In this document: piece by piece, positions 7,793-24,534 of the stretch
How positions within the stretch are numbered: the stretch's first letter is position 1
Layout: each line of letters starts with the position of its first letter
DNA from: a virus
DNA: 64,000 nt
Direction: 5' to 3' (one strand)
Virus record (IMG/VR): IMGVR_UViG_3300005573_000062
Span: 1 to 64,000 of that record
Program-made: the position numbers and the translations under genes
The notes under the pieces: generated by a model
What the model was told of the DNA's origin: nothing
Seen by the model: only the letters and a program-made list of their open reading frames with translations
The model's database searches: none

Positions 7793-7826
7793 CCTCTCAT
7801 TGACTTTTTAAATTTTATTTATTAAT

Positions 7827-7855
7827 ATTATATAAAAATTTTGATTTTCGTTCAA
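7827..7855 (-). promoter_or_regulatory. sigma70-like promoter for the minus-strand operon
   Basis: Reverse complement TTGAAC-N17-TATAAT. Confidence 0.75.
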
Positions 7856-7860
7856 TCTGA

Positions 7861-7878
7861 TATAAAATTGCTTATTTT
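7861..7878 (+). promoter_or_regulatory. Putative late promoter
   Basis: TATAAAATTGCTTATTTT, 5 nt before ATG7884; recurrent motif. Confidence 0.65.
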
Positions 7879-7883
7879 CTGCA

Positions 7884-9392: not shown

Positions 9393-9443
9393 TATATTTT
9401 GACGTTTTTAATTAAAGTTATTTTTAAAAAAAGGAGAAATAGA

Positions 9444-10139
9444 ATGGACAATAGAATAAATCCAAATAATGCAGATGTATTATACGATGAGAGTGGAGTT
9501 ACAATCGCCAACATTAAAGTGTTTGGTCCTAATACTGTTAATCAGTATGCTGTTCAAAGAGAAACAATGGCCAAAAGATTGGCAGATAAAGAAATAAATA
9601 CAACAACCGAAATTCTTACTAATCTATTTAAAAAAGCAGGATATGATGCAATAAAAGTAAATTATGTAGATCCTAAAATTACTTTGGATGAAAAAGATAA
9701 CATAAGCGGAAATATTAGATATTCATTTTTCGTTACAGATAAAGAAGGAACTAAAAAAGTCAATTTTGACTTAGTCTACAAAGAAGGAAAAGCTGAACTT
9801 CCTGATCTTTCCTCTATAAAAAGTGAAGTTAAAAATATAAAAACAGAAGAGAAAGAAAAAGAAGATCAAATAAAAACTGAGATAGAAAAACAATATGCTC
9901 CAGTAGCGGGCGTACAATTGGATGAAGACGGCGATATTAAGAAAGAAGCATCGGCTGGACCTAATAATGGTTCTTTTCATGCAGATATAATAAACGTCGA
10001 TAAAACTTGGATTCCCTTTCTTAAAAAGGGAGATATTATTGATATCGATGGAATGCCTTATGAGGTTGTCGGTGAAGATTATAACAAAATGTCTCAAAAC
10101 TCGGATGGTTCATTCATAACATTAAAGTTAAAGAGGTAA
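9444..10139 (+). CDS. Hypothetical protein, putative head-associated
   Basis: AGGAG RBS before ATG9444; internal KKEAS linker. Confidence 0.6.
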   Translation: MDNRINPNNADVLYDESGVTIANIKVFGPNTVNQYAVQRETMAKRLADKEINTTTEILTNLFKKAGYDAIKVNYVDPKITLDEKDNISGNIRYSFFVTDKEGTKKVNFDLVYKEGKAELPDLSSIKSEVKNIKTEEKEKEDQIKTEIEKQYAPVAGVQLDEDGDIKKEASAGPNNGSFHADIINVDKTWIPFLKKGDIIDIDGMPYEVVGEDYNKMSQNSDGSFITLKLKR

Positions 10140-10145
10140 CTCAAC

Positions 10146-11534: not shown

Positions 11535-12226
11535 TAAAGGAATTCATCCATTCCCTTTTTACTCGTTCAGTACAACCGAGTTCAATAAAAAGTCTAGATT
11601 CTACGTTAGTTCCCGAAGGTCCTGCTACTGTTTTTAATACCTCAAATCAGGATTATATTTATGTTGAAGATTTAAATTTAAGAATTCCAAAAACAGTTGG
11701 AATTGATTTAGGTCAATTCTATACACAGAAACAAATACTCGAGTCTGTCGACTTAAAAAGAAAGATAAATGAAGGTTTAATATCCATTCAACCGATTGGG
11801 ACTTCTCCATCTTTAGAAAAAGTTTTAATTAAATCAATTGATTCATTAGTAGTTGAAAATGTAAACGTTGCTAATACTATAGAAACTAAGACTATTAAAG
11901 AAATAATCGAACCTGAAAGTTTTATCACTACTGATACATTTCAAAATGCTAGACCTAACACTGGAGATATTATCGTTGATGGGTATAAATCAAAAACGAT
12001 TTTTATTGTTAATACTGGAGTAAATCCATTAAATTACAATATACTTGCTAGTGTGGATGGCAATAATTACGATTTTTTTATAACTAAAAATGGTGCTTTA
12101 AACAGTGGATCTAATGCAGTTCTAGTAGAAGATCGTGCATTTTATTCTATTAGAATCGAAGTGAAGTCAAAAAATCTAGGTGCTTCAACGACAGTAATTA
12201 CTAAGGGATATTTATTAGGAGTATAA
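11531..12226 (+). CDS. Putative virion protein with C-terminal beta-sandwich
   Basis: KTIFIVNTG.NPL.YNI.AS.DG..Y...YSIRIEVKS pattern. Confidence 0.5.
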   Translation: MIKEFIHSLFTRSVQPSSIKSLDSTLVPEGPATVFNTSNQDYIYVEDLNLRIPKTVGIDLGQFYTQKQILESVDLKRKINEGLISIQPIGTSPSLEKVLIKSIDSLVVENVNVANTIETKTIKEIIEPESFITTDTFQNARPNTGDIIVDGYKSKTIFIVNTGVNPLNYNILASVDGNNYDFFITKNGALNSGSNAVLVEDRAFYSIRIEVKSKNLGASTTVITKGYLLGV

Positions 12227-12227
12227 C

Positions 12228-13454
12228 ATGCCGATAATAGAACAGGATTCTAATGGAAATATTATAATTCCAGAATCTCCTTCCTTTTCTCCAGATTCAT
12301 TAGTAATGGATAAAGATGGAAATTTTATAAATCCTGCTAAAGAAGACGGTAATTTACAAATATTGTCCAATCAAGTAGTAACCAAATTGAATTTAACTTT
12401 ATCAGATTTATTAAATGGAATCAAAGGAATAGATAATAAAGATATATCTACTTTAGAGCAAAAAATTATTGATTTACAAACATTTTTAAATGGTAAGTTA
12501 AATTTATCTATACAAGATTTGGCTAATGCCCTAGAACAGATAACAGTTACTATTGATAATATAATAGGGATTAAAGATACTACAGGAATGCAAATCAATC
12601 CTGCTACCTTTGAAAGTATTCAAGGATTAAATACTTTACTTTCAGATATAAAAACTTTAATAAATTCATTAGATACAAAAACTACTATAGTAAATACCAA
12701 TGATGTTAAAGTTACAAGTTCAGTATTACCTACGGGTGCAGCTAAAGAAACGGGAGGAAATCTTGATTTAATTAAATCAAATACAGATAAGATAGATATT
12801 CCTTTATCTACTCGTGCTACTGAAACTACTTTACAAGATGTAGATACTAATGTAATAGCATTAGGCCCAAAGGTTGATGCTATCAAAACTCAATTAGATA
12901 CAAGAGTAAGAGGTCTTTTTGATGCTGATGGTAATTCAATTAATTCTATTGCTATTCCAATAATTGGGTATAGAGGAATTTCAAGTTTAAGTGCCACAAT
13001 AGACCAATATTATGCTTTTAATAAGCAGATGTTTTATTATGGCTATCCTATAAATATTAATGGTAATGACACAAATGTTATGGCATTAATAAATCCTGCG
13101 AATAGCAGAAAAACGATTTTAATAAAAAGAATATATATAGCAAGAAATCAGGATAACAATAATGGTGTTTTCTTTTCTATTAGATCAGGGGCTACGGTAT
13201 CTCCAGGAACACCTGTAACTCCATTATCCACAATAGGTGATGGAACTTCAGCTGCAATTTTATATACCGCTCCTGCGGTAACTGCCACAGGAAATTTAAT
13301 ATTTGTTATGGCATTAAATGCTAATGAAAGCAGTAAGCAAGAAGATTATAATTTAAATTACGGATTAAATACAGGAGAAAATTTACTTATAATAGGTAAC
13401 GCTACTGCTAATGGAACTCCGTGTTTTGTTACTCTTAATTGGGTGGAGGTATAG
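12228..13454 (+). CDS. Putative fibre-like virion protein
   Basis: Repeated (P/A)AKE/ATE knob motifs, coiled coil, beta-rich C-terminus. Confidence 0.5.
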   Translation: MPIIEQDSNGNIIIPESPSFSPDSLVMDKDGNFINPAKEDGNLQILSNQVVTKLNLTLSDLLNGIKGIDNKDISTLEQKIIDLQTFLNGKLNLSIQDLANALEQITVTIDNIIGIKDTTGMQINPATFESIQGLNTLLSDIKTLINSLDTKTTIVNTNDVKVTSSVLPTGAAKETGGNLDLIKSNTDKIDIPLSTRATETTLQDVDTNVIALGPKVDAIKTQLDTRVRGLFDADGNSINSIAIPIIGYRGISSLSATIDQYYAFNKQMFYYGYPININGNDTNVMALINPANSRKTILIKRIYIARNQDNNNGVFFSIRSGATVSPGTPVTPLSTIGDGTSAAILYTAPAVTATGNLIFVMALNANESSKQEDYNLNYGLNTGENLLIIGNATANGTPCFVTLNWVEV

Positions 13455-13455
13455 G

Positions 13456-14094
13456 ATGTTTGATTTAATAACATTAGACTACCCACAATTTATAAACATA
13501 GTTACTAAAAAGAAAGCAAGAATACAATATTTGGAAAAAGAAAATCAATATTGCCTATTTGCGTATGATGGCCCAATTAAATATTACACTTGTATTTATA
13601 AACAAGACCCAAAGATTGATAATTTTGACTGGGTTACAGAGCAGCAAAATCTAAATGATTTTGAAAGTAAATACAAATCTAGTGCCAATAGACCAATTGG
13701 AATTAGCCCTGTGGAAGGTGAGAGCATTTTTAAATCTTTTTTGTTAGAAATTCTAGATAACCAACAGCAAGGAATTATAGAAATAGATATAGCAGAAGTT
13801 TACGGTAAAGATATAGAATTAAGAAGGGTTAGACCAAGACCTATTCAAGCAAAAATGGGAGATAAGGTTCATTTTGAAGTCTGGGCTAAGGAAGGGTATG
13901 GGTTACCTACTGACGTTCCTTTGCGAAAATTTGGAGAGACCTATCTTGAAGGTGGAGATGGTTGGTCTGGCCTCTGGTATGAAGGAGTAGGAACTGCTCA
14001 AATTCCACAAATTTTTATATTAAAATTAATATATGATAAAGGAACAGATTTAACTTATAGGAGATTCTACTTAGATGTTGAGGTAATAATTTAA
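13456..14094 (+). CDS. Hypothetical (virion) protein
   Basis: GGAGGT upstream of ATG13456. Confidence 0.55.
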   Translation: MFDLITLDYPQFINIVTKKKARIQYLEKENQYCLFAYDGPIKYYTCIYKQDPKIDNFDWVTEQQNLNDFESKYKSSANRPIGISPVEGESIFKSFLLEILDNQQQGIIEIDIAEVYGKDIELRRVRPRPIQAKMGDKVHFEVWAKEGYGLPTDVPLRKFGETYLEGGDGWSGLWYEGVGTAQIPQIFILKLIYDKGTDLTYRRFYLDVEVII

Positions 14095-15251
14095 TGCTAG
14101 ATTCATTTTTGAATAAAATAATTAAAACTGCTCAAAAAGAGATATTAGATAAACCTATAAAAGGTTTAATATTAGTATTTGAAGGTTTAGACGGTTCTGG
14201 TAAATCCACGCAAACAGAATTAGTTGCTAAGATTTTTAAAAAAATAGGAAAAGAAGTTATTATATCTAGATGGAACTCTTCTAAAAAAATTTCAGATGTA
14301 GTTAAATTTTTAAAAAATAAAAAAGATCTTAAACCTCAAACCTGGACTCTGTTAGAAGCTGCGGATTTGTATGAAAGATTAAGAAAAGATATTCTACCTG
14401 TTGTCCAGAATGGAGGAGTTGCTATTTTAGATAGATACTATTATACCGCATTAGTTAGAGGATGTATTAGAGGAGCAGATCCTGAATGGATAAATGAAAT
14501 ATATAAATATGTTCCTGAACCCGACTACATTTTTTATTTTAGAATTAATCCTATTATTTCTTTATCTAGAGTATTAAAAAGATCTAAAGAGCTATCAATT
14601 TCTGATATTTTTGACATAAATGAGGTTCTTAAATTCTATGAATCAGGACAAGATCTTTCTTTTCATGAAAATAAATTAGTAAATTTCTATTTTTTTCAGA
14701 AAAAGATGACTGAATTATATGATACAATATTTAAAGAGTATAAAGATAAAGTATGTGTTTTAGATGCATCTAAAGACATATTATCTGTTTACGGCGATAT
14801 TATCAAATTTCTAAGGAATGAAAAAGTATTGACTGGATTTAGAACCTTTAGAGATATGATATATTTCGTTGAACTACCTAAAGGATCATTGAAAGTTTCG
14901 AAAGAGAATGAAGTAATGATGCCTTGTAATTATGGTTTTATTCCTAATACAATCGGTGAAGACTTAATGGAAGTAGATGTCTTAGTAGGTGATAATGAAA
15001 ATAGTGATTTAGTTGTTAAATTATATCATTACAATAAAAAAGATGAATTTTCAGAAGTAAAATATGCAATAGGATTTTCTTCAGTCGAAGAAGTTATTAA
15101 AGCATATACTCAAATTTATCCAAATAGAAAAATGAAATATGGAATAATGAAGTTTGAAGATTTTAAGAAAGAAATTAACAAAGAAGATGATTTTAGATCT
15201 ATAGAAAATCTGTTGAAATCGTATATAGGTGAGGGTACATATGGATTATAA
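14094..15251 (+). CDS. tmk: Thymidylate kinase fused to inorganic pyrophosphatase-like domain
   Basis: FEGLDGSGKST, LDRY (dTMP kinase); ELPKGS...PCNYGFIPNTIGED..EVDV (family I PPase). Confidence 0.85.
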   Translation: MLDSFLNKIIKTAQKEILDKPIKGLILVFEGLDGSGKSTQTELVAKIFKKIGKEVIISRWNSSKKISDVVKFLKNKKDLKPQTWTLLEAADLYERLRKDILPVVQNGGVAILDRYYYTALVRGCIRGADPEWINEIYKYVPEPDYIFYFRINPIISLSRVLKRSKELSISDIFDINEVLKFYESGQDLSFHENKLVNFYFFQKKMTELYDTIFKEYKDKVCVLDASKDILSVYGDIIKFLRNEKVLTGFRTFRDMIYFVELPKGSLKVSKENEVMMPCNYGFIPNTIGEDLMEVDVLVGDNENSDLVVKLYHYNKKDEFSEVKYAIGFSSVEEVIKAYTQIYPNRKMKYGIMKFEDFKKEINKEDDFRSIENLLKSYIGEGTYGL

Positions 15252-15762
15252 AATTAAGCCAGGAGAGATCTATCCTGGAGATATATTATTATTTTCAGGA
15301 AAAGGATTTATTTCAAGAGGTATAAAATTTTTTACAAATTCTGAATACTCCCATGTTGCAATTGCTGTTTCCGGAACAGAATGTATAGAAGCAACTGCTG
15401 CAGGAGTAGAAAAAAGTGATATACAAACATTAATAAATAAAACTGAACACTTTTGTGTAAGAAGAATAGATTTGACAATGGAACAAGCTGAAAAAATAAA
15501 GGAAAGAGCTTATCAACTTTTATATGAAAGTTACGATTTTCTTCAATTTATAAGTATGATTCCTTACCTTTTACTTAGAAAAATAGGAATAACATGGAAT
15601 TCTCTTATATTTAATTCTAGAGTTAGAATGATTTGTTCTGAATTGGTTGGGGTATGTTTAAAATATGCAGATGTTATTAATACTCCTAATTATTATATAA
15701 AAAGATATACTCCTGATTCTTGGTATAAATTTGAGAAGGCTAAAACAATTTTAGAATTATGA
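15241..15762 (+). CDS. Permuted papain-like NlpC/P60 (YiiX-like) hydrolase
   Basis: PGDILL, YSHVAI, IEA, YDF, CSELV, TP. Confidence 0.85.
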   Translation: MDYKIKPGEIYPGDILLFSGKGFISRGIKFFTNSEYSHVAIAVSGTECIEATAAGVEKSDIQTLINKTEHFCVRRIDLTMEQAEKIKERAYQLLYESYDFLQFISMIPYLLLRKIGITWNSLIFNSRVRMICSELVGVCLKYADVINTPNYYIKRYTPDSWYKFEKAKTILEL

Positions 15763-18581
15763 AACTTTTTAAAAACAAAAATCATCCTTTGATTCCTGTT
15801 TTGAATGAGTGGAAAAAATTAAATAAAATGGAATCTAGAACTTTAGATTCTATTGATGAAGAACCTATCTTAAAAACATTCAAAATCGATGGAGAATTAA
15901 CTGCTGTTTATTATAACAATGGAGATGTAGAATTAGTATCGAAGACAGGAACAATTCGAAAAGAACTTCCTTTGTGTGAAGAAATTAAAGATGCTTTAAA
16001 GGAATATAAAGAAGTTATTCTTATTGGAGAATTATATGGGGTGGATGAAAATGGGAAAATGCTTCCTTTTAATGAAACATCTAGTATTTTGAGAACGCCT
16101 ACTTCAGAAGAAGAAAAAAGAATTCGATTGTCTGTGATTCAAATATTATCAGCAGACAAATTGTTTTTTGATTCTGTCATTGAAAGTTACTCTTTAGTTA
16201 AAGAATTATTTAGTGAATATACATATATTCATCCTATGCCTGAAGTAACAAAAGATTTAAATGATATTTGGACAGTTGAGATAGCAACAAAAAATTACGA
16301 AGGATTTGTTTTATATTATCCAGATAAAATAGTAAAAGTTAAACCGAAATTGGAATTTGATTTAGCTGTTATATTTGTTGAGATTAGTGATATACACCCA
16401 GATAGAATGGGGGCTCTAGGACTTGCTTTTATGGATGAAGAAAGAAATTTTAGATATGCTGGAAAAGCGGGAACTGGGTTTTCTAATAAGGATAGATATG
16501 ATTGGTTAGAATATGGAAAAGAAAGAGAAGTAAGAAAAGAGGATAACAAAATTTTTATAAAACCAGATAGAGTTGTAAAAATAGAGGCAATGGATGTTTT
16601 TATTAGAGAAGCTGAAACGTATGATCAGGATTTAAATTATATTGGAGATAAAACATCTGGGATATTAAGACAACCTGTATTTATAGAAATACGAGAGGAT
16701 AAAGAAGCGACCCCTGAAGATATTAGAATAGAACAGATTCCTAATTGGAATAAATTAGTAAAAACCTCATCTTTATCAGTTGTTTCATATATTCAATATA
16801 TTAAAAATCATAAGAATTCAAAAGGAGAACCTGCTCCTTGGGTAATAAAAGAGCATAATACTGGAAGAATACTTTCATCCCATAAAACCAAAGAAGAAGC
16901 TGAAAAGCACTTAAAACAAATATATTATTTCAGACATAAAAAAGCAGGGTATCAAATGGAATTAGATGATTATTTAAAGGAACGTCTTTTTGAAAAATAT
17001 TTAAATGATCATATTAATTCAGTAAAAGATAATGTTAAAAAGATAGTGTTTAAGTATCCTCAATATATAAAAGCATTAGAGAATGTAGAAGAACATGATA
17101 AACTTAAAAATTTAGAGCCTGAAAGAACTCCATATATTGAATTAACATATAAGAAATTGTATGGGATTAAAGATCTATCTGAAGAAGAACAACAGGCTCT
17201 ATTTCATCATATCAAAAATAGTAAGCATCATCCTGAATATTGGGATGATTTAGTACAGAATGTAAGGAATGATCCCGATAATGCAACTCAAGAAGTGAAT
17301 GTTTCTAAAATGCCAGATGAATATCTCTTGGAAATGGTTGCAGATTGGAAAGCTACTGCTGATGTACTAGGAAATACCGCTAGATCCTGGTTTGAAAAAC
17401 AAAACGGAAAAAGATGGATTTTTACTTCACATCAAATTGATTTAATTAACAAATTTATAGATGTTCTAGAACCTCAAGAATCTAATGAGGAAAGAAATCT
17501 TATACAATCAGTAGAAGAAGAGATAAAAGCAGTTAAGTTATACACAGATTTCCGGGATAAAACAAATGATGAAAAAGTAAAAGATGTTTATAATCATGTA
17601 ATTGATGAAGAAATGGAGCATGCAGAAGAATTTTTAGATGCACTAAAGAATACCAGAGAAGCACTTTTCATGAATGCATATTTTCCTAGTCATCCGGATA
17701 AAATAGTCATACCTGAGGCTAAAAAAACAGAAAAAGACATATGGAACTATTACGATTCTATAAAAGAAAAGATGCTTAATTATCTTAAAGGGTATGATAT
17801 TGTACTTAGAATCATAACTGATTCTGGGCCTATAATTGTACGGCATGACCCCAAAACAGGTGAGAATATTAAAATAAATACTATTGAAGATTTTGACAGA
17901 TGGAATAATGGTAGAGTTATCGAATTTCATAGAGCTATTCCTTCATCTAAAACAGATCTCTTATGGATAGATTTTGATCCTCATGAAGAATACGATAAAA
18001 AAGATATTTTTAAAATTATGTCTGAGATTGAAGAACAAGTTAAAGATAATTTCGATGTTAATAAAATAGAAACTTTTTCTACTGGGGGTAGAGGATACCA
18101 TATGTTTATATACTTAAAATCCGAAATTGATGTAGATGAAGCTAGAAAAGAATTAAAAAGACTTTTAGATGAAATTTCAGAAAATCATGAAAAAATAACT
18201 ACTGGAATAGCAAATAAGGATGAAATGAGATTAGATATTTCAACTTTGCACTATGGCGGTAGTTTAAGATCTCCTTTTTCTCTTAATATAACATCTGGGA
18301 TTCCTGAAAAACCGATCAATATAACTATTAGTCATTTGCTATCTTTTATTAAAACTGGGGATCAAGATGAAATCATTAAAACTGAATATGGGATTCTACG
18401 CGAATTGTCAGATGAAGGATTAATAAATAACGATATTTTAGGTAAATTATTGGAAAAAACAGATTTTGGTAAAAGGATGAGGGAAGAAACAGAAAGAAAA
18501 ATTAATAATGAAATTTCTAAAGAAGAGTATAAAAACAATATAATAAAGTTAGTCGAAGAACTTCTAGCTGCTTTAATATAA
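15759..18581 (+). CDS. Polyprotein: ATP-dependent DNA ligase + small domain + DUF5662/HD-like + ferritin-like + LigD-type AEP primase-polymerase
   Basis: KIDGE, GELY, EGFV, KVK, GKAGTGF, LRQPVF..REDK; HD..K...HH..N.HHPEYW...EMVADW; EEEIKAV.LY...EEMEH; HPDK...YY, IDFDP, TGGRGYH, SPFSL. Confidence 0.85.
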   Translation: MKLFKNKNHPLIPVLNEWKKLNKMESRTLDSIDEEPILKTFKIDGELTAVYYNNGDVELVSKTGTIRKELPLCEEIKDALKEYKEVILIGELYGVDENGKMLPFNETSSILRTPTSEEEKRIRLSVIQILSADKLFFDSVIESYSLVKELFSEYTYIHPMPEVTKDLNDIWTVEIATKNYEGFVLYYPDKIVKVKPKLEFDLAVIFVEISDIHPDRMGALGLAFMDEERNFRYAGKAGTGFSNKDRYDWLEYGKEREVRKEDNKIFIKPDRVVKIEAMDVFIREAETYDQDLNYIGDKTSGILRQPVFIEIREDKEATPEDIRIEQIPNWNKLVKTSSLSVVSYIQYIKNHKNSKGEPAPWVIKEHNTGRILSSHKTKEEAEKHLKQIYYFRHKKAGYQMELDDYLKERLFEKYLNDHINSVKDNVKKIVFKYPQYIKALENVEEHDKLKNLEPERTPYIELTYKKLYGIKDLSEEEQQALFHHIKNSKHHPEYWDDLVQNVRNDPDNATQEVNVSKMPDEYLLEMVADWKATADVLGNTARSWFEKQNGKRWIFTSHQIDLINKFIDVLEPQESNEERNLIQSVEEEIKAVKLYTDFRDKTNDEKVKDVYNHVIDEEMEHAEEFLDALKNTREALFMNAYFPSHPDKIVIPEAKKTEKDIWNYYDSIKEKMLNYLKGYDIVLRIITDSGPIIVRHDPKTGENIKINTIEDFDRWNNGRVIEFHRAIPSSKTDLLWIDFDPHEEYDKKDIFKIMSEIEEQVKDNFDVNKIETFSTGGRGYHMFIYLKSEIDVDEARKELKRLLDEISENHEKITTGIANKDEMRLDISTLHYGGSLRSPFSLNITSGIPEKPINITISHLLSFIKTGDQDEIIKTEYGILRELSDEGLINNDILGKLLEKTDFGKRMREETERKINNEISKEEYKNNIIKLVEELLAALI

Positions 18582-18592
18582 AATTGCGTTTT
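18577..18592 (+). promoter_or_regulatory. Putative late promoter
   Basis: TATAAAATTGCGTTTT. Confidence 0.6.
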
Positions 18593-18600
18593 AATTGGTT

Positions 18601-20625
18601 ATGAATTCGTTTAAAATTGCTGCGGAGACCGGTCCTTACTGGATTAGCCCAAAAGGGAAAGTATATAAAGTGGATGAGCCTACTCATGAAGTGTGGGCTA
18701 ATATTAATTTCGATAAATCACCACATGAATTATTGAAAGAAGGCTGGGTAAGAATTCAACTTAATCCTTCTGGAATTTCTGGTATTGCTATTCAGGTGGA
18801 TTCACTTAATAATCTATCTGAGTCTGTTGACGATTTCGTTTATCAAAATCGAGGATATTATATAATAGTCGACGCAGGAAATAAAAATTATAATATAAAT
18901 TACGATGAATTTTTAGATTCTGGCAAAAGTTTAAGATCTTATATTGAATCTAAAAGTCCAATCGGTCCAACTTCAAGATTAAGAGGTGGTATCATGAATG
19001 ATTTTATTAAAGAATTAATAAAAGAAGCTGATTTTTATAAAGAAAAACAGGAACAAAAACCTATCAAATTCAAAGTAACTCCTTCTGAAAAAGGTAAAGA
19101 TTCTGAAACAAAAGAAGAAGCAACTTTTATGGATGTTAAAAATATTCAACAGGTTTCTGAAGAACTTAGAAAGTTAATATCTGATGTCGTATCTTTACAA
19201 AAAGTTGAATCTGAACTCAAGGAAAAACAAAGAAAATTTGAAGAAGCACAAAAAATAGTTCATGATAAATTGCATGAATTTTTAAAAAAATCATATATAT
19301 CTGTAATAGCTTTAGTAGGTAAAACTCCTAAAGATGTAATCGAATTTAAAAAAGAACTAGGAGACGTGCTCGATAAAAAGACGTTTGAGCGATACAGAAT
19401 AGAGCAGGAAGAAATAGAAAAAACTTTGCTTAATATAACTCAATTGAGTGCTAAAGTAGAAGAAGAATTTAATAAAAGAATACTCAATTTATATGATAAA
19501 TTAGAAAAAAATACAATGTATTTAGATAATGTTTTAAGAGCGATGGTTCGTGATGCTTCCGAAATGACATACGTAATAGGAGCAATGAAAGAGGTCGGAA
19601 AACCAGAAAGATACGCGATATATAAATCTTCTGTTGAAAAATCTCTTGAGAAAATTAGTCAAGAATTTAAAAACGGAAAAGAAATAGTAGAAAGTATTAG
19701 AAAATATATAAATGAATTTTTAAAAGATGTTGTTAATTCAGATGAGCATTTCCAAAAAGTTGTTAAAATTTTCGAAAGTGGAAGACTTGCAGACTATCTA
19801 TATGTTGATCTAGATGAGGAAATTAAACAAAAACTTTTAGGAGAGGATAAATTACAGTCGATGATTGAATTAAAATTCAAAGAAAAGTATCCTAATAGTG
19901 ATATAAAATCTGAAGTTGAAAAAAGAATACAAACAATTAAGAAAGATAATAAAGATATATCAGATGATGATGCTAGAAAAATGGTATTTAAAGAATTGTT
20001 TAATGAATTAGGTGGGCATACATATCCATCAGTGTACGAAGAAAAAGGGAAAGAATTACTTCAAACCCAATATAGAGAACAAGCTAGGGAACTCTTAAAG
20101 AATATTTTGCTTTCAAAAAATCCAGAATTAGCAAAGGATGAAACGAAATTAAATGAAGAAATCGATAAATATCTTAGTCAATATTTTAAAGGTTCGGAAG
20201 ATATCGAGAAGATTCTTAAAGAAGTTCAAAAAATTCCTTTACCTCATTTAGAAAAAGAATTAAAAAAATCGTTCTTAGAAAAGATTATAATAAATAAAGA
20301 TTACAAAAAGATTGATTTGATTTCTAAACTTTTAGAATCTAATTATGATTTAAATACAGCAATCCAGGTTATAGCTACTATTTCTGATATATCTATACCT
20401 GAAGTAGAAGCACTATCAAGTGCTCTCGATGCGTTGAATACTACAGCTGAATTGATCATCTCAGAAAGTAATAAATTGCAAGAATCGATTGCTAATATAA
20501 AAGAAGCAGGTAAAGAAATAGAAGAAGTTCTTTCTAAAAAAGTAGAAACAGAAGTAGAACCGACTTTTCAACCTGAGTTTGCTCTTGCTCCTGCTTCGTT
20601 AAAAAGCAAGATTGATATAAAATAA
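18601..20625 (+). CDS. Large helical protein, putative internal head protein
   Basis: GPYWISPKG..H...GWVRI N-domain then coiled coils; internal RBS+ATG at 18994. Confidence 0.6.
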   Translation: MNSFKIAAETGPYWISPKGKVYKVDEPTHEVWANINFDKSPHELLKEGWVRIQLNPSGISGIAIQVDSLNNLSESVDDFVYQNRGYYIIVDAGNKNYNINYDEFLDSGKSLRSYIESKSPIGPTSRLRGGIMNDFIKELIKEADFYKEKQEQKPIKFKVTPSEKGKDSETKEEATFMDVKNIQQVSEELRKLISDVVSLQKVESELKEKQRKFEEAQKIVHDKLHEFLKKSYISVIALVGKTPKDVIEFKKELGDVLDKKTFERYRIEQEEIEKTLLNITQLSAKVEEEFNKRILNLYDKLEKNTMYLDNVLRAMVRDASEMTYVIGAMKEVGKPERYAIYKSSVEKSLEKISQEFKNGKEIVESIRKYINEFLKDVVNSDEHFQKVVKIFESGRLADYLYVDLDEEIKQKLLGEDKLQSMIELKFKEKYPNSDIKSEVEKRIQTIKKDNKDISDDDARKMVFKELFNELGGHTYPSVYEEKGKELLQTQYREQARELLKNILLSKNPELAKDETKLNEEIDKYLSQYFKGSEDIEKILKEVQKIPLPHLEKELKKSFLEKIIINKDYKKIDLISKLLESNYDLNTAIQVIATISDISIPEVEALSSALDALNTTAELIISESNKLQESIANIKEAGKEIEEVLSKKVETEVEPTFQPEFALAPASLKSKIDIK

Positions 20626-20674
20626 CTTTTTTCAAGATAAAAAAGAAATTACGCTTTTAAGGCGAAAAGTTTCA

Positions 20675-22303
20675 ATGGATATAATAAACGAAATTTTCTC
20701 CGGTGAAATAAATAAAACAATAGCTGATAGAATTTTTAATTCATTGGATTCTGTATTTGATCCGTCCTATTGGTTTCTTAAAGAATTAAATATTAATTTA
20801 TACGACAATCAAATCGAAATCCTCAATGCAGTTACAAATCTGAATGAAAAATATGTTGCTATAATAGGTGGAAGATCCTCCGGAAAAACATTTGCAGTTG
20901 CAGGGGGAATAGTTTTTTTATGTATTATTTATCCAAAACTTCAAGTTGGAGTTTTCGGTCCTAAAGCAGCACAAGCAATAAGGATATTAGATGAAATAAA
21001 TTTTAGAGTTTTAAACGATAAAATCAAAAACACTTACTTAGAAATGGAACGTTGTAATAAAACATATCTTTTGTTTAAAAATAAATCATCTATTTTAGCT
21101 CAATCGGCGGCCCAAGAAACAGAAGGAGAAGGTTATCATTTTGACATTTTAGTATGCGACGAATCTCAACGAATTTCTGACTTCTCTTTTTCTCAAAGAC
21201 TAGCTCCAATGATTTCTTCCTCTTCAATTGGAAAAATTATTCAATTGGGAGTTCCTTTATATAAAGGGCATTTCTGGAGAGCCTTTCAGGAAGGAAGTCA
21301 GTATACTAAAATAATTCACGATTGGAAGAAATGTCCTAAATATCATTTAGGCGGTTCAATTAAGATAAATAATCAATTATATCCCAGAACGATAATTGAA
21401 CAAATGCCCAAGTCGTTAAAAATTAAAAATTTTCCAGATAATCCAGAATTGTGGTTTGAATCTACTACTAATATGTCAGAAGAAGACTTTATTACACAAT
21501 ATGAAATGGGATGGTTAAATAATCTAAGTTTAGTATTGACTGAGGACGATCAGATAAAATTATCTTCAGGATCTTTTGAACCATTAGAAGTTGGACATCC
21601 CTACGAAGAATATTATTTCGGTTTAGATTTTGCAGGAGGAGTAGCAATTGGGAATAAAGAAAAAAGTGATTTTACAGCTATCTCAGTTATTAGAAAGACT
21701 CCTGACAATAGAAAAGAAGTAGTATTTTCTCATGAATGGAAAGGTGATTTATCTACTCAAGTTGGAGAAATAATATATTTAATACATCCGCAAAAAGGAA
21801 GATTCAAATGTAAATTTGGGCTGGCAGATTATGGAAACATGGGGTCAGGACTTGTGGATATAATGATTAAAGAAGGAATTCCTATTAGAGGTTTATATTT
21901 TCATAGTAAAGATCCTAAGAGTGGAAAAAATTTCAAAAATGCTATGATAGATCATCTTATATTTGAATTACGAAATGATCGATTCTTTTATCCTTATTCA
22001 GCTATTCACAATATGACTCCTAGAAATGACGTTTATAAATTATTAAAAAAACACTTTGAAGAATGGTGTTCTTTGGAAAGACACATTTCATCTTCAGGGA
22101 TAAATCACGATATCAAATCACCAGATGAATTGCATGATGATGGGTGTTTCTCAAATGCTCTTGCTGTTTTTGCAGCAGATAATATGTTGACAGATGGACT
22201 AGCAGTAGGATATCAACTTCCAGGTGTTAAAAGATGTAATGGACTTTTCAAATCAAATATTTTTAATAGCGGCGGAAAAACATGGATAAGAAAGATATTT
22301 TAA
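20675..22303 (+). CDS. terL: Terminase large subunit
   Basis: YDNQ, GGRSSGKT, LVCDESQ, FGLDFAG, SDFTA, HDD. Confidence 0.92.
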   Translation: MDIINEIFSGEINKTIADRIFNSLDSVFDPSYWFLKELNINLYDNQIEILNAVTNLNEKYVAIIGGRSSGKTFAVAGGIVFLCIIYPKLQVGVFGPKAAQAIRILDEINFRVLNDKIKNTYLEMERCNKTYLLFKNKSSILAQSAAQETEGEGYHFDILVCDESQRISDFSFSQRLAPMISSSSIGKIIQLGVPLYKGHFWRAFQEGSQYTKIIHDWKKCPKYHLGGSIKINNQLYPRTIIEQMPKSLKIKNFPDNPELWFESTTNMSEEDFITQYEMGWLNNLSLVLTEDDQIKLSSGSFEPLEVGHPYEEYYFGLDFAGGVAIGNKEKSDFTAISVIRKTPDNRKEVVFSHEWKGDLSTQVGEIIYLIHPQKGRFKCKFGLADYGNMGSGLVDIMIKEGIPIRGLYFHSKDPKSGKNFKNAMIDHLIFELRNDRFFYPYSAIHNMTPRNDVYKLLKKHFEEWCSLERHISSSGINHDIKSPDELHDDGCFSNALAVFAADNMLTDGLAVGYQLPGVKRCNGLFKSNIFNSGGKTWIRKIF

Positions 22304-22446
22304 TGCGATTATATCAGATTTCAAATGAATTAAAAGAAATAGAGGTTTTTCTTAAGAATGAAACAGATTTATATTATGATTATTTAAGACATGCAATGCA
22401 AAATCTAAAAAAAGAAATGGAAATTTTGGAGGATGACAATGAATGA
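22303..22446 (+). CDS. 47-aa hypothetical protein
   Basis: TAATG coupling; MRLYQISNELKEIE...; fills the terL-portal gap. Confidence 0.5.
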   Translation: MRLYQISNELKEIEVFLKNETDLYYDYLRHAMQNLKKEMEILEDDNE

Positions 22447-23962
22447 AAATAAAGAAGGAATAAAAAAGGTCGGTGAACTATGGAATTCAGACTTAAATAA
22501 ACGAGTAATAACAAAACAGGCGTCGGCCGCTGGATCTGTTACTCTTACGAGCGCTCAATTTTATACTCCAGAATTAACTCCTGAAACCTGGCTATTACCA
22601 AAAAGTAGACAAGAAGTTTTAAGATGGGCTAGAATATATTTCAATCTTGAACCTTATATTCAGTCTATTATAATGTTTCATAGCAGATATCCTTTTTCTA
22701 AATTTAAGTTAATTGGAGAAGATAAAGGAATTGTAGAATTTTTCAACGAAGTCGTTGATAATGAAAGATGGAATCTATATGAATTTATCTTACAGGCTAG
22801 TTTATCATATCATCTTTACGGTGAAGCAATTCCAATGGGAGAATGGGATGAAAAAGATAAAAAGTGGAAAAAATTTATATTGTTAGAACCTGAATTAGTC
22901 GAGGTTAAACAAGGATTATTTGACGATGAAACTAAATTTGAACTTATTCTAACAGATGAAATTAAAAAACAAATAAACGATCCAAATGTAGATACTAGTA
23001 AAATTCCCGAAGCCGTAGTTGAAGCAATTAAATCAAATAAGAATATCAGATTAGATAACAAAAATGTTTCAATAATTGCTAGACTTACAAGTCCATCTGC
23101 TCTTAGGGGTACTCCAATTATACAATGTTTATTTAAAGTTTTAATTTATCAAGATTATATTCGTTTAGCTCAAATGAGAATAGCAGAACGACACCAACTT
23201 CCTTTTGAATTATGGACACTTGGCAACATAGATAAAAATATTCTTCCGTCAGATGAAGATCTTGAGAATTTTAAAAATATGATTAATTCAGCTATTCAAA
23301 ATCCTCCTTTTTCAATGGTTTATCCTCCAATAGTAGATTATAAAGTTCTCGGAGTAAAAGATAAATTATTGAATATATATGAAGATCTAGGATATGTTGA
23401 AAATCAGATTTTGGTTGGTTTAGGAGTCAATAAAAATTTGATACTAGGTGAAGGTCCTTCCTTTTCAAATACAAAAACAATATCTTTAAATAAATTGATG
23501 ATGGAATATCAAATTATAAGAGATACCTTCGAGAGATGGATTTACAATCATGTCTTTAGACGTATAAGTGAAGAAAATGATTTTTTTATACATAAGGGAA
23601 AGTTTAAAAAACTTATTCTTCCTAAAATCGAATGGGAAAAGAGTCTTAGATTGGATGAGGATGATGAAAGAAAAGTATATCAAGAACTTCATTCAAAAGG
23701 ATTTGTTTCCACTAAAACTCTGTTCAGCAAGTTTAGTAATTTAGATTATGATATGGAACGCAGACAACTCGAGGAGGAAAAAGGAACAATTTACGATAAA
23801 ACAGATGGGAAAAGAATTCCTGAAAAATTTGATCAATCTAAAGAAGAAGTTAGATCAGATAAGACTGTGGGGTTGGAGACCCCCCCTCTTCCGACCCCAC
23901 CTACTATGACAGAAGAGGTAAAACCTGAACTTCCTCTTCCTGAGATAAAAATAGGAGAATAG
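22433..23962 (+). CDS. Portal protein
   Basis: Follows terL; YHLYGEAIP, RGTPII, GLGV...LILGEGPSFS; 509 aa. Confidence 0.85.
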   Translation: MTMNENKEGIKKVGELWNSDLNKRVITKQASAAGSVTLTSAQFYTPELTPETWLLPKSRQEVLRWARIYFNLEPYIQSIIMFHSRYPFSKFKLIGEDKGIVEFFNEVVDNERWNLYEFILQASLSYHLYGEAIPMGEWDEKDKKWKKFILLEPELVEVKQGLFDDETKFELILTDEIKKQINDPNVDTSKIPEAVVEAIKSNKNIRLDNKNVSIIARLTSPSALRGTPIIQCLFKVLIYQDYIRLAQMRIAERHQLPFELWTLGNIDKNILPSDEDLENFKNMINSAIQNPPFSMVYPPIVDYKVLGVKDKLLNIYEDLGYVENQILVGLGVNKNLILGEGPSFSNTKTISLNKLMMEYQIIRDTFERWIYNHVFRRISEENDFFIHKGKFKKLILPKIEWEKSLRLDEDDERKVYQELHSKGFVSTKTLFSKFSNLDYDMERRQLEEEKGTIYDKTDGKRIPEKFDQSKEEVRSDKTVGLETPPLPTPPTMTEEVKPELPLPEIKIGE

Positions 23963-23965
23963 AAT

Positions 23966-24532: not shown

Positions 24533-24534
24533 TT

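What the first reader, a model, noticed from the sequence alone, without database searches (positions are those of the whole stretch)
14094..18581. Candidate virion-packaged DNA repair kit: ligase/HD/ferritin/primase-polymerase polyprotein plus dTMP kinase-pyrophosphatase
Seen: the 940-aa ORF strings together an ATP-dependent ligase (~15759-16745), a ~50-aa module, a DUF5662/HD-like domain (~16990-17470), a ferritin-like hairpin (~17490-17650) and a LigD-type AEP (~17680-18320). A TMK-PPase fusion lies two genes upstream. Both sit in a late-motif block beside terL and portal rather than with replication genes. Established: ligase+AEP(+phosphoesterase) is the bacterial NHEJ LigD recipe, and PPase domains recur in phage polyvalent proteins. 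Inference: these enzymes are packaged, cleaved apart and injected to seal, heal or circularise the incoming genome, for example against host nucleases. The HD-like domain may replace the LigD phosphoesterase and the PPase may pull ligation and synthesis forward. No Ku gene is recognisable in the window.
Basis: partly seen in the sequence, partly recalled or inferred. Interest (0 to 1): 0.88.

Follow-up and report, generated by a model that had tools for sequence, protein, structure and literature searches.

The report
Phage LigD-like DNA repair polyprotein
A hot-spring phage encodes, just ahead of its DNA-packaging and head genes, one long protein that joins a DNA ligase, a repair-type polymerase, a phosphohydrolase-like domain and a small iron-binding-type hairpin, which looks like a self-contained kit for mending broken DNA, though whether it travels inside the virus particle is unproven.

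Summary
ORF 15759-18581 (940 aa) contains, in the stated order and places, an intact ATP-dependent DNA ligase, a ~60-aa module, a DUF5662 domain with an H..HD..H..HH..D signature and HD-phosphodiesterase-like fold, an EncFtn-like hairpin with all four di-iron residues, and a LigD-type primase-polymerase. A dTMP kinase-InPase fusion and a C92 peptidase lie just upstream. terL and portal lie downstream. An 11-nt motif that also precedes the sheath and protease/scaffold genes heads the block. Ligase+AEP in one chain recurs in 30 of 169 relatives examined. 12 of those 30 also carry the LigD 3'-phosphoesterase, which this protein lacks, and one is a 2659-aa polyprotein that also carries a lytic transglycosylase. 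A close relative keeps the whole fusion plus one more inserted domain. In a complete relative genome the ligase and AEP genes sit between the capsid gene and the next head-region gene. Replication genes, including a DnaG-type primase, lie 45 kb away. No Ku was found in five phage records. Packaging, cleavage and injection remain inference. The kinase-InPase belongs to a separate mobile cassette and is about 37-42 kb from the ligase in two relatives. New variant of a known kind.

The parts
7861..7871 (+). late-type promoter-like motif TATAAAATTGC, 23 nt before the ATG at 7884; heads the gene chain 7884-18581
   Evidence: 5 exact copies in 126 kb, 4 on the + strand at gene starts (7861, 18577, 24221, 34362). 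Promoter function is inferred.
12228..14094 (+). genes X (12228-13454, 408 aa) and Y (13411-14094, 227 aa), the first half of a conserved cassette X-Y-kinase/InPase-C92
   Evidence: 86% and 91% identity in G002, 74% and 74% in G001, always followed by the kinase-InPase and C92 genes. No Pfam or PHROG family. The Atlas model of X resembles BclA-C-terminal-type domains (lead only).
14094..15251 (+). dTMP kinase (residues 29-165, DNA 14178-14588) fused to a polyvalent-protein-type inorganic pyrophosphatase (residues 259-359, DNA 14868-15170)
   Evidence: Thymidylate_kin 1.4e-25, InPase 1.2e-12. P-loop string at residue 31, DRY-type string at 112, acidic PPase string at 288; the same fusion in 9 other cluster representatives at 58-82% identity.
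15229..15762 (+). permuted papain-like C92 (YaeF/YiiX-type) peptidase/amidase, 177 aa
   Evidence: Peptidase_C92 1.5e-07 (32.1 bits, cut-off 27); phrog_1128 1.5e-29. His-containing string at residue 40 and Cys-containing string at 134; their catalytic role is inferred.
15759..16757 (+). ATP-dependent DNA ligase, nucleotidyltransferase + OB domains only (residues 1-333); K42 in KIDG, E91, E181-G182, K193/K195, R304, R312, K315
   Evidence: P. furiosus ligase 2cfm, E 4.3e-06 over 42-327; invariant columns; pLDDT 86-98; Foldseek 3rr5 E 1.2e-17; M. tuberculosis LigD ligase 6nhz 1.5e-14
16767..16955 (+). ~60-aa connector module (residues 337-399), predicted as a beta-hairpin plus a helix; no family
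   Evidence: also found in P0004, P0025, P0050, P0141 and 17 ART-PolyVal proteins, and only once in this genome; no Pfam hit; low pLDDT (36-58).
16959..17474 (+). DUF5662, HD-like metal phosphohydrolase domain (residues 401-572); invariant H418, H446-D447, K450, H484, H490-H491, E493, E525, D529
   Evidence: 9.2e-19; invariant columns in 11 sequences; pLDDT 86.9; HD-GYP 9rbz Z 9.6, rmsd 3.0, 132 aligned; PgpH 4s1b Z 8.9, rmsd 3.6, 138; Bd1817 3tm8 Z 8.6, rmsd 3.2, 127
17481..17666 (+). EncFtn-like two-helix hairpin (residues 575-636) with E588, Y595, E618, H621
   Evidence: 7.9e-09; EncC 7s8t E 7.2e-06; aligned to Rru_A0973 5da5; residue numbers; homodimer score 0.69 vs best control 0.28
17691..18323 (+). 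LigD-type archaeo-eukaryotic primase-polymerase (residues 645-855); D738-x-D740, H781 in GGRGYH, D826
   Evidence: PF21686 29.6 bits over cut-off; NHEJ polymerase 5dmu E 0.005, with the N-terminal HPDK stretch aligned; motif positions; pLDDT 86-97
18324..18581 (+). helical C-terminal tail (residues 856-940) of unknown role, plus the stop codon
   Evidence: found only in P0024 (and in the ortholog P0293, 79% identity); low to middling pLDDT.
18577..18587 (+). second copy of the late-type motif, overlapping the stop codon of the 940-aa ORF and preceding ORF 18595-20625
18595..20625 (+). 676-aa ORF of unknown function between the polyprotein and terL
   Evidence: no family, no phage match, no usable Atlas hit. 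A 693-aa ORF holds the same position in L033.
20675..23962 (+). terminase large subunit (20675-22303) and portal (22433-23962)
   Evidence: phrog_2 2.1e-24; phrog_16240 2.4e-47. Terminase_6N.

Best explanation
The 940-aa ORF encodes a Ku-independent, LigD-like 'heal, fill and seal' enzyme built in the style of phage polyvalent proteins. The LigD-type primase-polymerase fills short gaps or extends 3' ends. The minimal ATP-dependent ligase seals the nick. The DUF5662 HD-like phosphohydrolase most likely cleans blocked 3' ends (3'-phosphate or 2',3'-cyclic phosphate), the job done by the LigD phosphoesterase in relatives. The EncFtn-like hairpin pairs two chains through a shared di-metal site, which could hold two DNA ends or two active sites together without Ku. 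The gene is transcribed with the virion genes from a late-type promoter. I think the protein is most likely loaded into the capsid and delivered with the DNA, so that nicks, gaps and breaks in the incoming genome are mended before phage gene expression. Such damage could come from heat in a hot spring or from host nucleases. Shown here: the domains, their intact catalytic residues, the recurrence of the architecture and the genomic context. Inferred: the HD substrate, dimer-mediated bridging, late timing, packaging and injection. The kinase-InPase next door is a separate cassette. It may also be virion-associated, but it is not a conserved partner.
For: Domains and residues. Folds: ligase by Foldseek at E 1.2e-17. 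The HD-like domain's only full-domain structural matches are HD phosphodiesterases (Z 9.6, 8.9 and 8.6). Recurrence: 30 of 169 relatives have ligase and AEP in one chain, and 12 of those 30 add LigD_N. P0028 is ligase-AEP-LigD_N. Polyvalent style: P0027 (2659 aa) is 2H-ligase-AEP-SLT transglycosylase-CCA-adding enzyme. Other large relatives carry Acb1, GNAT, GGDEF/mCpol and a guanylate kinase. DUF5662 and the connector module recur in 17 ART-PolyVal proteins. The 83%-identical ortholog P0293 keeps the whole fusion and has a further ~163-aa domain inserted exactly at a linker. Context: the block is headed by the motif that also precedes the sheath and protease-scaffold genes. Its genes overlap or lie 1-6 nt apart. 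terL lies 2 genes downstream here and in L033. In G002 (100% complete) the ligase and AEP genes lie between the major head protein homologue and the homologue of window ORF 29805-30278. A dedicated DnaB-like helicase, a DnaG zinc-ribbon frame and PolB lie 45-60 kb away. No Ku was found in 5 of 5 phage records, including the complete one, and no Mu Gam or LigD_N in this genome. Dimer prediction for residues 566-645: 0.69 against a best control of 0.28. This mark was reached by 21 of 30 proteins solved as pairs of one chain and by 0 of 23 solved as single chains. The runs agree in 100% of contacts and the partner pLDDT is at least 83. The model supports binding but does not show it, and solved EncFtn dimers may be remembered. 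InPase relatives are fused to a portal-type protein in E. coli phage vB_Eco4M-7. Iyer et al. 2017 (PMC5512222, passages read) predict that InPase-bearing proteins are packaged. Habitat: a hot-spring metagenome run of one further study holds 0.90 of the sampled words.
Against: There is no direct evidence of packaging. The polypeptide has no MuF, portal or MPTase domain, and the ORFs of the block share no N-terminal leader. No cultured phage in INPHARED has a tblastn match, so no virion proteome can be consulted. Gene position in mosaic phages is weak evidence. In G001/L011 the only recognised neighbour is a homologue of an unnamed window ORF, in L014 no virion gene was recognised, and in L013 the nearest is a tail-fibre gene 4.3 kb away. 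It is the only DNA ligase found in the held 71% of the genome, so it could simply serve replication. The HD-like domain's nearest structures hydrolyse cyclic dinucleotides, not DNA ends, and the tool warns that Z below about 13 for helical domains may reflect only a common arrangement. Foldseek gave no significant match. Most DUF5662 proteins seen are not fused to a ligase (3 of 37 DUF5662-bearing proteins: P0001, P0005, P0006). The late-type motif was not found near the ligase genes of relatives.
Confidence: 0.4

Rival explanations
1. Late but not packaged. The enzyme works in the infected cell on newly replicated concatemers, removing blocked ends, filling gaps and sealing nicks so that the terminase can package intact DNA. 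It is co-transcribed with terL for that reason.
For: It shares the same late-type motif and lies next to terL. No capsid-targeting feature was found. It is the only DNA ligase in the held sequence. A hot-spring habitat implies frequent strand damage (the damage is an inference).
Against: This does not explain why relatives embed the same ligase and AEP in giant polyproteins with a lytic transglycosylase, Acb1 or GNAT. It also does not explain why DUF5662 and the connector module travel with ART-PolyVal proteins.
Confidence: 0.3
2. An ordinary intracellular replication/repair enzyme whose place beside the packaging genes is an accident of mosaic genome shuffling. The ligase seals Okazaki fragments, and the AEP is an auxiliary primase or translesion polymerase.
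For: No second DNA ligase was found. The neighbouring cassette is clearly mobile: 86-91% identity to G002 against 22% for the portal. A TnpB gene splits the ligase and AEP genes in L012.
Against: A DnaG-type zinc-ribbon primase frame sits directly after the DnaB-like helicase, 48 kb away, with PolB nearby. The AEP is of the LigD repair type rather than a replicative PrimPol type (PF21686 hit; PF09250 not found). The gene chain is headed by the motif shared with the sheath and scaffold genes, not by the TTGAA-N17-TATATAAT type seen before other genes.
Confidence: 0.15
3. The HD-like domain is not an end-healing enzyme. It is a self-standing effector that destroys host cyclic (oligo)nucleotide immune signals and is merely strung on the same polyprotein as the ligase and polymerase.
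For: The best structural neighbours are HD-GYP and PgpH cyclic-dinucleotide phosphodiesterases. DUF5662 mostly occurs without a ligase, often with ART-PolyVal. Relatives carry Acb1 and GGDEF/mCpol domains. Iyer et al. 2017 and 2021 (passages read) predict signal-degrading enzymes in injected polyvalent proteins.
Against: Ligase+DUF5662 is kept as a two-domain protein of its own in two relative clusters (P0005, P0006). HD domains of CCA-adding enzymes are known to heal 3' ends (recalled, not checked here). The structural Z scores are within the range the tool calls uncertain for helical folds.
Confidence: 0.25
4. The kit repairs RNA (for example tRNAs cut by host anticodon nucleases) rather than DNA.
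For: Relatives combine the ligase and AEP with 2H phosphoesterase, CCA-adding enzyme and a cyclic-phosphate-processing receiver domain. There is a weak RNA_ligase Pfam hit (1.3e-03).
Against: All top sequence and structure matches of the ligase are DNA ligases with an OB domain. The genome has a separate RNA ligase at 124384-125397. The AEP is of the LigD type, with the N-terminal stretch that aligns to an NHEJ polymerase.
Confidence: 0.07

Closest known systems
Bacterial DNA ligase D (LigD) of the Ku-LigD non-homologous end-joining pathway
   Same: An ATP-dependent ligase (NTase+OB) and a LigD-type AEP polymerase lie in one polypeptide. The ligase model matches M. tuberculosis LigD ligase (Foldseek E 1.5e-14). 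The AEP matches PF21686 and NHEJ polymerases. 12 of 30 fused relatives also carry the LigD 3'-phosphoesterase.
   Different: This protein and genome have no phosphoesterase domain. No Ku was found in any of 5 phage records. An HD-like domain, an EncFtn-like hairpin and a connector module sit between ligase and polymerase. It is encoded by a phage beside its packaging genes.
Mycobacterial LigC / Prim-PolC excision-repair complex (PMC5663958; title and start of abstract seen in the search listing)
   Same: It pairs an AEP polymerase with an ATP-dependent ligase that fills and seals short gaps. That it works without Ku is my recollection, not in the listing. This is the mode of action I favour here.
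   Different: There they are separate cellular proteins working with base-excision enzymes. Here they form a single phage polypeptide with extra domains. No biochemical test was done here.
Phage polyvalent proteins (Iyer et al. 2017, PMC5512222; passages read)
   Same: Several unrelated catalytic domains are strung on one chain. It is encoded among virion genes, and domains are shuffled between close relatives. [quoted passage not shown] DUF5662 and the connector module co-occur with ART-PolyVal.
   Different: 'DNA ligase' does not occur in the main text of that paper, and it reports Primpol only in conjugative-element polyvalent proteins. This chain has no MuF, portal or MPTase domain. The paper's full domain inventory is in external files that I could not see, so DUF5662 or the connector module may correspond to one of its unnamed LPD domains.
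Encapsulated ferritins (EncFtn) of encapsulin nanocompartments
   Same: It is a two-helix hairpin with the E/Y/ExxH di-iron residues at the same spacing and a predicted symmetric dimer. It is encoded next to an HK97-type capsid module.
   Different: Here it is an internal domain of a 940-aa enzyme, not a free cargo protein. No encapsulin-type targeting peptide was identified. Iron binding was not tested.
T4 Pnkp + ligase and other 'healing and sealing' pathways
   Same: The logic is the same: an end-cleaning phosphoesterase plus a ligase, encoded by a phage.
   Different: No polynucleotide 5'-kinase domain was found in the polyprotein. The neighbouring kinase has the canonical thymidylate-kinase P-loop and DRY strings. 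The healing domain is HD-like, not HAD-type (the latter is recalled).

Membership tests
Bacterial LigD | ATP-dependent ligase core (NTase + OB) with the lysine-adenylate motif KxDG and motifs III-VI | tested here: met
   PF04679 37.8 bits; PF01068 32.7 bits; K42, E91, E181-G182, K193/K195, R304/R312/K315 invariant in 4 sequences; Foldseek E 1.2e-17
Bacterial LigD | LigD-type AEP polymerase domain with catalytic DxD, H and D | tested here: met
   PF21686 33.7 bits vs 27.4; D738/D740, H781, D826; aligned to NHEJ polymerase 5dmu, E 0.005
Bacterial LigD | 3'-phosphoesterase domain (LigD_N) | tested here: not met
   No PF13298 hit in the protein or in the 126-kb record. The recalled HxDxR-type motif is absent. 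It is present in 12 of 30 fused relatives.
Bacterial LigD | Works with a Ku homodimer encoded nearby | tested here: not met
   PF02735 was found in 0 of 5 phage records, including the 100%-complete G002. No Mu Gam was found. A host Ku cannot be tested because the host is unknown.
Phage polyvalent proteins (Iyer 2017) | Two or more functionally unrelated catalytic domains in one polypeptide of a phage or conjugative element | tested here: met
   Ligase, HD-like, EncFtn-like and AEP domains plus two unassigned modules. The model has pTM 0.43 with high per-domain pLDDT, that is, independent beads on a string.
Phage polyvalent proteins (Iyer 2017) | [quoted passage not shown] | tested here: met
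   terL lies 2 genes downstream, then portal, protease-scaffold and MCP. L033 has the same layout. In G002 the genes lie between the MCP homologue and the next head-region gene.
Phage polyvalent proteins (Iyer 2017) | Linked by fusion to hallmark domains (MuF, portal, MPTase, ART, lysozyme) | tested here: inconclusive
   P0001 has none. Indirect links: DUF5662 and the connector module with ART-PolyVal in 17 proteins; SLT in P0027; the neighbouring gene has InPase. A search for longer fused forms returned nothing (weak).
Phage polyvalent proteins (Iyer 2017) | Packaged in the virion and delivered with the DNA | not testable with these tools
   There is no isolate, no virion proteome, and no relative among 50,697 phage records.
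HD-domain phosphohydrolases | H...HD...D metal-binding signature on an all-helical core | tested here: met
   H418, H446-D447, H484, H490-H491 and D529 are invariant in 11 sequences. The model has pLDDT 86.9 and is all-helical.
HD-domain phosphohydrolases | Fold match to solved HD enzymes | tested here: inconclusive
   VIA-align: 9rbz Z 9.6 (rmsd 3.0, 132 aligned), 4s1b Z 8.9 (3.6, 138), 3tm8 Z 8.6 (3.2, 127). These are the only matches covering the whole domain, but they lie below the tool's caution line for helical folds. Foldseek gave no E<=1e-3.
EncFtn (encapsulated ferritin) | Two-helix hairpin with Glu, Tyr and ExxH di-iron ligands that forms the metal site across a dimer | tested here: met
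   PF22277 35.6 vs 27. E588, Y595, E618 and H621 are aligned with EncC and Rru_A0973. Dimer prediction: 0.69 vs best control 0.28; mark reached by 21 of 30 proteins solved as pairs and 0 of 23 solved as single chains; 100% contact agreement between runs; partner pLDDT at least 83. The pass may reflect solved EncFtn dimers. The residue roles are recalled.
EncFtn (encapsulated ferritin) | C-terminal encapsulin localisation peptide | not tested
   The domain is internal, and no search for such a peptide was made.
Thymidylate kinase | P-loop and DRY-type motif of dTMP kinases | tested here: met
   PF02223 90.5 bits. The P-loop string is at residue 31 and the DRY-type string at 112. Which residues are diagnostic is recalled.
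InPase (PF18823, polyvalent-protein pyrophosphatase) | Profile match above cut-off; acidic metal-binding cluster | tested here: met
   48.3 bits vs 26.8. The acidic string is at residue 288. Lack of the beta-hairpin insert described by Iyer 2017 was not examined.

The most novel reading that the evidence does not exclude
A tailed phage of a hot spring carries its own Ku-independent DNA break and gap repair machine inside the capsid. The machine is a dimeric LigD-like polyprotein whose HD-like domain cleans ends and whose ferritin-like hairpin bridges two chains. It mends the incoming, heat- or nuclease-damaged genome before any phage gene is expressed. The same ligase-polymerase pair is a widespread, so far undescribed cargo of phage polyvalent proteins (1489 relatives at E<=1e-3 of any of the protein's domains in the representative library, some in 2000-2700-aa chains with cell-wall hydrolase and anti-signalling domains).
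Probability: 0.3. Interest if true: 0.85.

Novelty: new variant of a known kind. Interest (0 to 1): 0.6.

Why it matters
Proteins known to be injected by phages take over transcription (N4 RNA polymerase, T4 Alt) or block restriction (P1 Dar). If a packaged ligase-polymerase-phosphoesterase exists, genome repair would join the tasks a virion brings with it. That would bear on how phages survive restriction, CRISPR cuts and thermal damage. Even if it is not packaged, the family is of interest. It gives a Ku-free, single-chain LigD variant from a hot-spring virus, which may be a thermostable end-healing, gap-filling and sealing enzyme. It gives a first functional context for DUF5662. It also shows an EncFtn-type hairpin used as an internal domain beside an HK97-type capsid module, which bears on the link between encapsulin cargo and phage capsids. 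My searches of the held library found no paper on DUF5662, none combining LigD, phage and polyvalent protein, and one irrelevant paper for 'LigD-like' with 'phage'.

Tried and rejected
Cleavage code. The N-termini of 19 ORFs between 7884 and 30278 show no shared leader. After the ligase domain many relatives have a Lys-rich K-[KT]-[ST]-[SA]-type stretch, and the connector module ends in F-[KR]-H-K-x-[AGS] in the sequences printed. With five junctions I cannot tell either pattern from chance or from ordinary domain ends, so I make no claim of a protease site.

AEP as the replicative primase. Rejected as the main reading, because a DnaG zinc-ribbon frame follows the DnaB-like helicase. Toprim models did not hit, so that primase is identified by its zinc ribbon only.

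Kinase as a polynucleotide 5'-kinase. Considered because a guanylate-kinase domain is fused to the ligase in L014. Set aside because the Thymidylate_kin match is strong and the P-loop and DRY strings are canonical.

Phosphoesterase replaced in position. Rejected. In 9 of the 10 fused relatives that carry the recalled phosphoesterase motif it lies after the AEP, and in 1 it lies between AEP and ligase. P0028 agrees.

Sigma-70 scan of 5500-25000: 90 sites against 111.5 expected, so uninformative.

The late-type motif was not found next to the ligase genes of relatives.

Searches that gave nothing:
- tblastn and megablast against 50,697 phage records, and tblastn with the 676-aa neighbour.
- Atlas search for the 676-aa neighbour.
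- PHROGs for P0001.
- Foldseek on the HD/EncFtn model.
- Pfam (E<=0.01) and PDB phmmer on the extra insert of P0293, whose RadC/JAB likeness rests only on a recalled motif.
- The search for longer fused forms (the tool calls this weak evidence).
- No RNA holder is listed among the sequencing runs.

Names of relatives: 10 of 10 looked-up clusters carry no informative name.

Papers. PMC5512222 and PMC7824862: passages only. PMC5862659: passages only. PMC5663958: title and start of abstract in the listing only. The external files of PMC5512222 with the complete domain inventory were not seen. They may list a ligase or a domain equal to DUF5662.

Full report
WHAT IS THERE. The window is the first 64 kb of a 126,098-bp virus record that CheckV rates 71% complete. 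On the + strand lies a chain of nine genes from 7884 to 18581 that overlap or are separated by at most 6 nt. The last three genes are the finding.

ORF 14094-15251 (385 aa) is a thymidylate kinase (residues 29-165, 90.5 bits) fused to the InPase type of inorganic pyrophosphatase (259-359, 48.3 bits). ORF 15229-15762 (177 aa) is a permuted papain-like C92 peptidase. ORF 15759-18581 (940 aa) matches four Pfam families above their curated cut-offs: DNA_ligase_A_C (216-315), DUF5662 (411-559), EncFtn-like (575-632) and LigD_Prim-Pol (694-842). The ligase nucleotidyltransferase half passes PF01068 in a six-frame search of the genome.

PHROGs has no family for the 940-aa protein. No cultured phage among 50,697 records has a tblastn match.

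ARE THE DOMAINS INTACT?
- Ligase. The protein aligns over residues 42-327 with archaeal ATP-dependent DNA ligases. K42 of KIDG, E91, E181-G182, K193/K195, R304, R312 and K315 are invariant among the four closest sequences. In a whole-protein AlphaFold model (mean pLDDT 83.7, pTM 0.43) residues 1-333 have block pLDDT of 86-98. Foldseek puts DNA ligases first (3rr5, E 1.2e-17). M. tuberculosis LigD ligase (1.5e-14) and T4 ligase (1.7e-14) are also listed. The ligase has no N-terminal DNA-binding domain, so it is a minimal ligase like the LigD ligase domain.
- AEP. It has D738-x-D740, H781 in GGRGYH and D826. Its N-terminal HPDK stretch aligns with an NHEJ polymerase (5dmu, E 0.005).
- DUF5662. 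In an 11-sequence alignment it has invariant H418, H446-D447, K450, H484, H490-H491, E493, E525 and D529. A model of residues 400-640 (pLDDT 86.9) gave no significant Foldseek match. An exhaustive structural alignment found that the only chains covering the whole domain are HD phosphodiesterases: HD-GYP 9rbz (Z 9.6, rmsd 3.0, 132 residues), PgpH 4s1b (Z 8.9, rmsd 3.6, 138) and Bd1817 3tm8 (Z 8.6, rmsd 3.2, 127). The tool warns that such Z values are not decisive for helical folds. Together with the H..HD..H..HH..D signature I accept an HD-type metal phosphohydrolase.
- EncFtn-like hairpin. It aligns with EncC (E 7.2e-06) and Rru_A0973, and keeps E588, Y595, E618 and H621.
- Dimer. A two-helix hairpin cannot form a ferritin-type site alone. 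A homodimer prediction of residues 566-645 scored 0.69 against a best control of 0.28. That mark was reached by 21 of 30 proteins solved as pairs of one chain and by 0 of 23 solved as single chains. The runs agree in 100% of contacts and the partner pLDDT is at least 83. This supports dimerisation but does not show it, and solved EncFtn dimers may be remembered by the model.
- Unassigned parts. The ~60-aa connector module (337-399) and the C-terminal tail (856-940) have no family and low model confidence.

RELATIVES. An exhaustive profile-free search found 1489 proteins at E<=1e-3, and the best 150 were listed. I mapped the six parts of the query onto all 169 proteins then in hand, which were those 150 plus the hits, with one overlap:
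- 67 have the ligase only and 32 the AEP only.
- 30 have ligase and AEP in one chain.
- 17 have DUF5662 plus the connector module. These are the ART-PolyVal proteins.
- 2 have ligase plus DUF5662.
- 1 has AEP-module-EncFtn and 1 has EncFtn-AEP.

None of these 169 had the full order of the query. Among the 30 ligase+AEP proteins, Pfam finds the LigD 3'-phosphoesterase in 12. The family is therefore LigD-like in the full sense, and this member lacks that domain. Where present, the phosphoesterase lies after the AEP, so the HD-like domain does not take its place in the chain.

The other partners are telling. P0027 (2659 aa) reads 2H phosphoesterase - ligase - AEP - SLT lytic transglycosylase - CCA-adding enzyme with HD. 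Twenty further large relatives include PolyA_pol in 3, GGDEF in 2, 2H in 2, and Acb1, GNAT and rubrerythrin in 1 each. A 2789-aa ORF in L014 joins a guanylate kinase to the ligase. This is the style of the polyvalent proteins of Iyer et al. 2017. That paper's main text never mentions a DNA ligase and reports Primpol only in conjugative elements. Its full inventory is in external files that I could not see.

A CLOSE ORTHOLOG. The metagenome scan found a 34-kb contig (L033) with the same gene order. It runs kinase-InPase (385 aa), C92 (178 aa), a 1107-aa ORF, a 693-aa ORF, then ORFs of 542 and 510 aa at the places of terL and portal (these two are assigned by position and size, not tested).

The 1107-aa protein is 71-86% identical to the query domain by domain. 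It keeps all six parts and has about 163 extra residues inserted exactly at the module/HD linker. So the fusion is under selection as one reading frame and grows by insertion at linkers.

Other close fragments show different joins. These are P0036 (ligase end, then an unrelated tail), P0024 (AEP plus tail alone) and P0141 (AEP end, module, other). More distant phages split the parts:
- ligase+DUF5662 as a 531-aa protein, with the AEP three genes downstream (L011, L034);
- ligase and AEP as neighbouring genes (L013);
- ligase and AEP separated by a TnpB gene (L012).

The parts can therefore work as separate proteins. That is compatible with cleavage of the fused form but does not show it.

CONTEXT. 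Downstream lie a 676-aa ORF without any match, terL, portal, a protease-scaffold fusion, the major head protein and the tail sheath. The 11-mer TATAAAATTGC occurs five times in the genome. Four copies are on the + strand just before gene starts: at 7861 (head of the chain), 18577 (overlapping the stop of the 940-aa ORF), 24221 (before the protease-scaffold group) and 34362 (before the sheath). By my rough hand estimate from base composition, about 0.5 copies would be expected by chance; no shuffle control was run. Several other genes are preceded by a TTGAA-N17-TATATAAT type of site. I read the 11-mer as a late-promoter element. This is an inference from the genes it precedes.

Replication genes form their own region: SF2 helicase 62000-63478, DnaB-like helicase 65174-66616, a DnaG zinc-ribbon frame starting at about 66600, and PolB 76807-79065. 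So the AEP is not needed as the replicative primase. The 940-aa ORF does hold the only DNA ligase found. The other ligase, at 124384-125397, is an RNA ligase.

Context in relatives:
- G002 (89,780 bp, 100% complete): the order is portal, protease, major head protein, ligase, TnpB, AEP protein, then a homologue of window ORF 29805-30278.
- L013: a tail-fibre gene lies 4.3 kb upstream.
- L011 and L014: no virion gene was recognised nearby.

That makes two clear cases including L033, one near case and two uninformative ones.

THE KINASE-InPase IS A SEPARATE UNIT. The fusion is conserved in 9 other cluster representatives at 58-82% identity. It always follows genes X and Y and precedes the C92 peptidase, in G001, G002 and L033. 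In G001 this cassette lies after the major head protein and about 42 kb from the ligase. In G002 it lies directly before tail-fibre homologues and about 37 kb from the ligase.

X and Y are 86-91% identical between this phage and G002, although the portals are only 22% identical. The cassette therefore moves between phages. It is always among structural genes. InPase relatives form the C-terminus of a DUF1073 portal-type protein next to MuF in E. coli phage vB_Eco4M-7. So a virion association of this cassette is plausible on its own, but it is not a conserved partner of the ligase polyprotein.

HOW IT MOST LIKELY WORKS. No Ku was found in any of five phage records, and no Mu Gam in this genome. 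I therefore favour a Ku-independent mode like that of mycobacterial LigC/Prim-PolC, which fills and seals short gaps (PMC5663958, listing only). In this reading the HD-like domain removes blocking 3' groups, the AEP fills the gap, and the ligase seals the nick. The EncFtn-like hairpin makes the enzyme at least dimeric.

A hot-spring origin makes heat-induced strand damage a likely substrate. One further study's hot-spring run holds 0.90 of the sampled words, and two other holders may be the source itself. Host nucleases are another possible source of damage.

Late-type transcription, the position among head and packaging genes, and the company this ligase-AEP pair keeps in giant chains with a cell-wall hydrolase all point one way. 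I think delivery inside the virion is the single most likely reading (0.4). A late cytoplasmic role in preparing DNA for packaging (0.3) fits nearly as well. An ordinary replication role (0.15) is not excluded. The substrate of the HD-like domain is open, and a cyclic-nucleotide phosphodiesterase acting as an independent effector is a serious alternative (0.25 for that domain).

VERDICT. Packaging, cleavage and a role for the kinase-InPase are unproven, and the last of these is weakened. This is a new variant of known kinds (LigD; polyvalent proteins). I found no description of it in the searches I ran.

Noticed in passing
L012 11236-12333; genome 119109-120107; L011 2-1114; G002 5506-6606 and 87491-88591: A TnpB/IS605-OrfB-type gene (Cas12f1-like_TNB 1.6e-20) sits exactly between the ligase gene and the AEP gene in L012. 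BLASTP relatives occur in several places in these phage genomes.
   Followed up: partly
window 12228-14094 versus G002 60837-62700: Genes X and Y are 86% and 91% identical between two phages whose portals are 22% identical. Pieces of tail-fibre genes (window 46207-48945, 49983-50438) are also about 91% identical. This looks like recent mosaic exchange of a fibre-linked cassette. The Atlas model of X resembles BclA-C-terminal-type domains (lead only).
   Followed up: partly
window 7861, 18577, 24221, 34362 (+ strand); variant at 51572: A conserved AATATAAAATTGC(T/G)TTT element lies just before virion-gene starts. It is probably the late promoter of this phage. A different TTGAA-N17-TATATAAT type precedes genes at 1328, 30376, 63519, 68413 and 75840.
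   Followed up: partly
L033 11198-11725 (residues ~400-575 of P0293): The close ortholog has about 163 extra residues inserted at the module/HD linker. They carry an HNHPSG-x5-PS-xx-D string that I recall as the RadC/JAB motif. Pfam (E<=0.01) and PDB sequence searches found nothing.
   Followed up: partly
protein P0170 (557 aa, metagenome): Its DUF5662 domain is split into 17-180 and 509-556 by an insert of about 330 residues at the conserved EM.AD-W motif. By eye the insert has intein-like ends and an HNH-like middle. One ligase+AEP relative has an Intein_splicing hit. If this is an intein, it marks that motif as functionally critical.
   Followed up: no
genome 124384-125397 (outside the window): A separate RNA ligase (PHA02142 OB-fold 2.6e-31 + RNA_ligase 1.1e-22).
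   Followed up: no
L014 15-15063: Three giant ORFs lie in a row (1120, 2789 and 1107 aa). The middle one has guanylate kinase, DNA ligase and DUF7831. A GroEL-like gene follows.
   Followed up: partly
window 24864-27518: The head protease is fused to a long Lys/Glu-rich scaffold-like region (884 aa). Its residues 540-587 are 71% identical to part of an otherwise unrelated ORF in L012 (16118-17554) and weakly match DUF6496/phrog_2423.
   Followed up: no
genome ~66600-67640 (outside the window): A DnaG-type zinc-ribbon frame (44.3 bits) lies directly after the DnaB-like helicase. Toprim profiles did not hit, so its catalytic domain is very divergent or absent.
   Followed up: no
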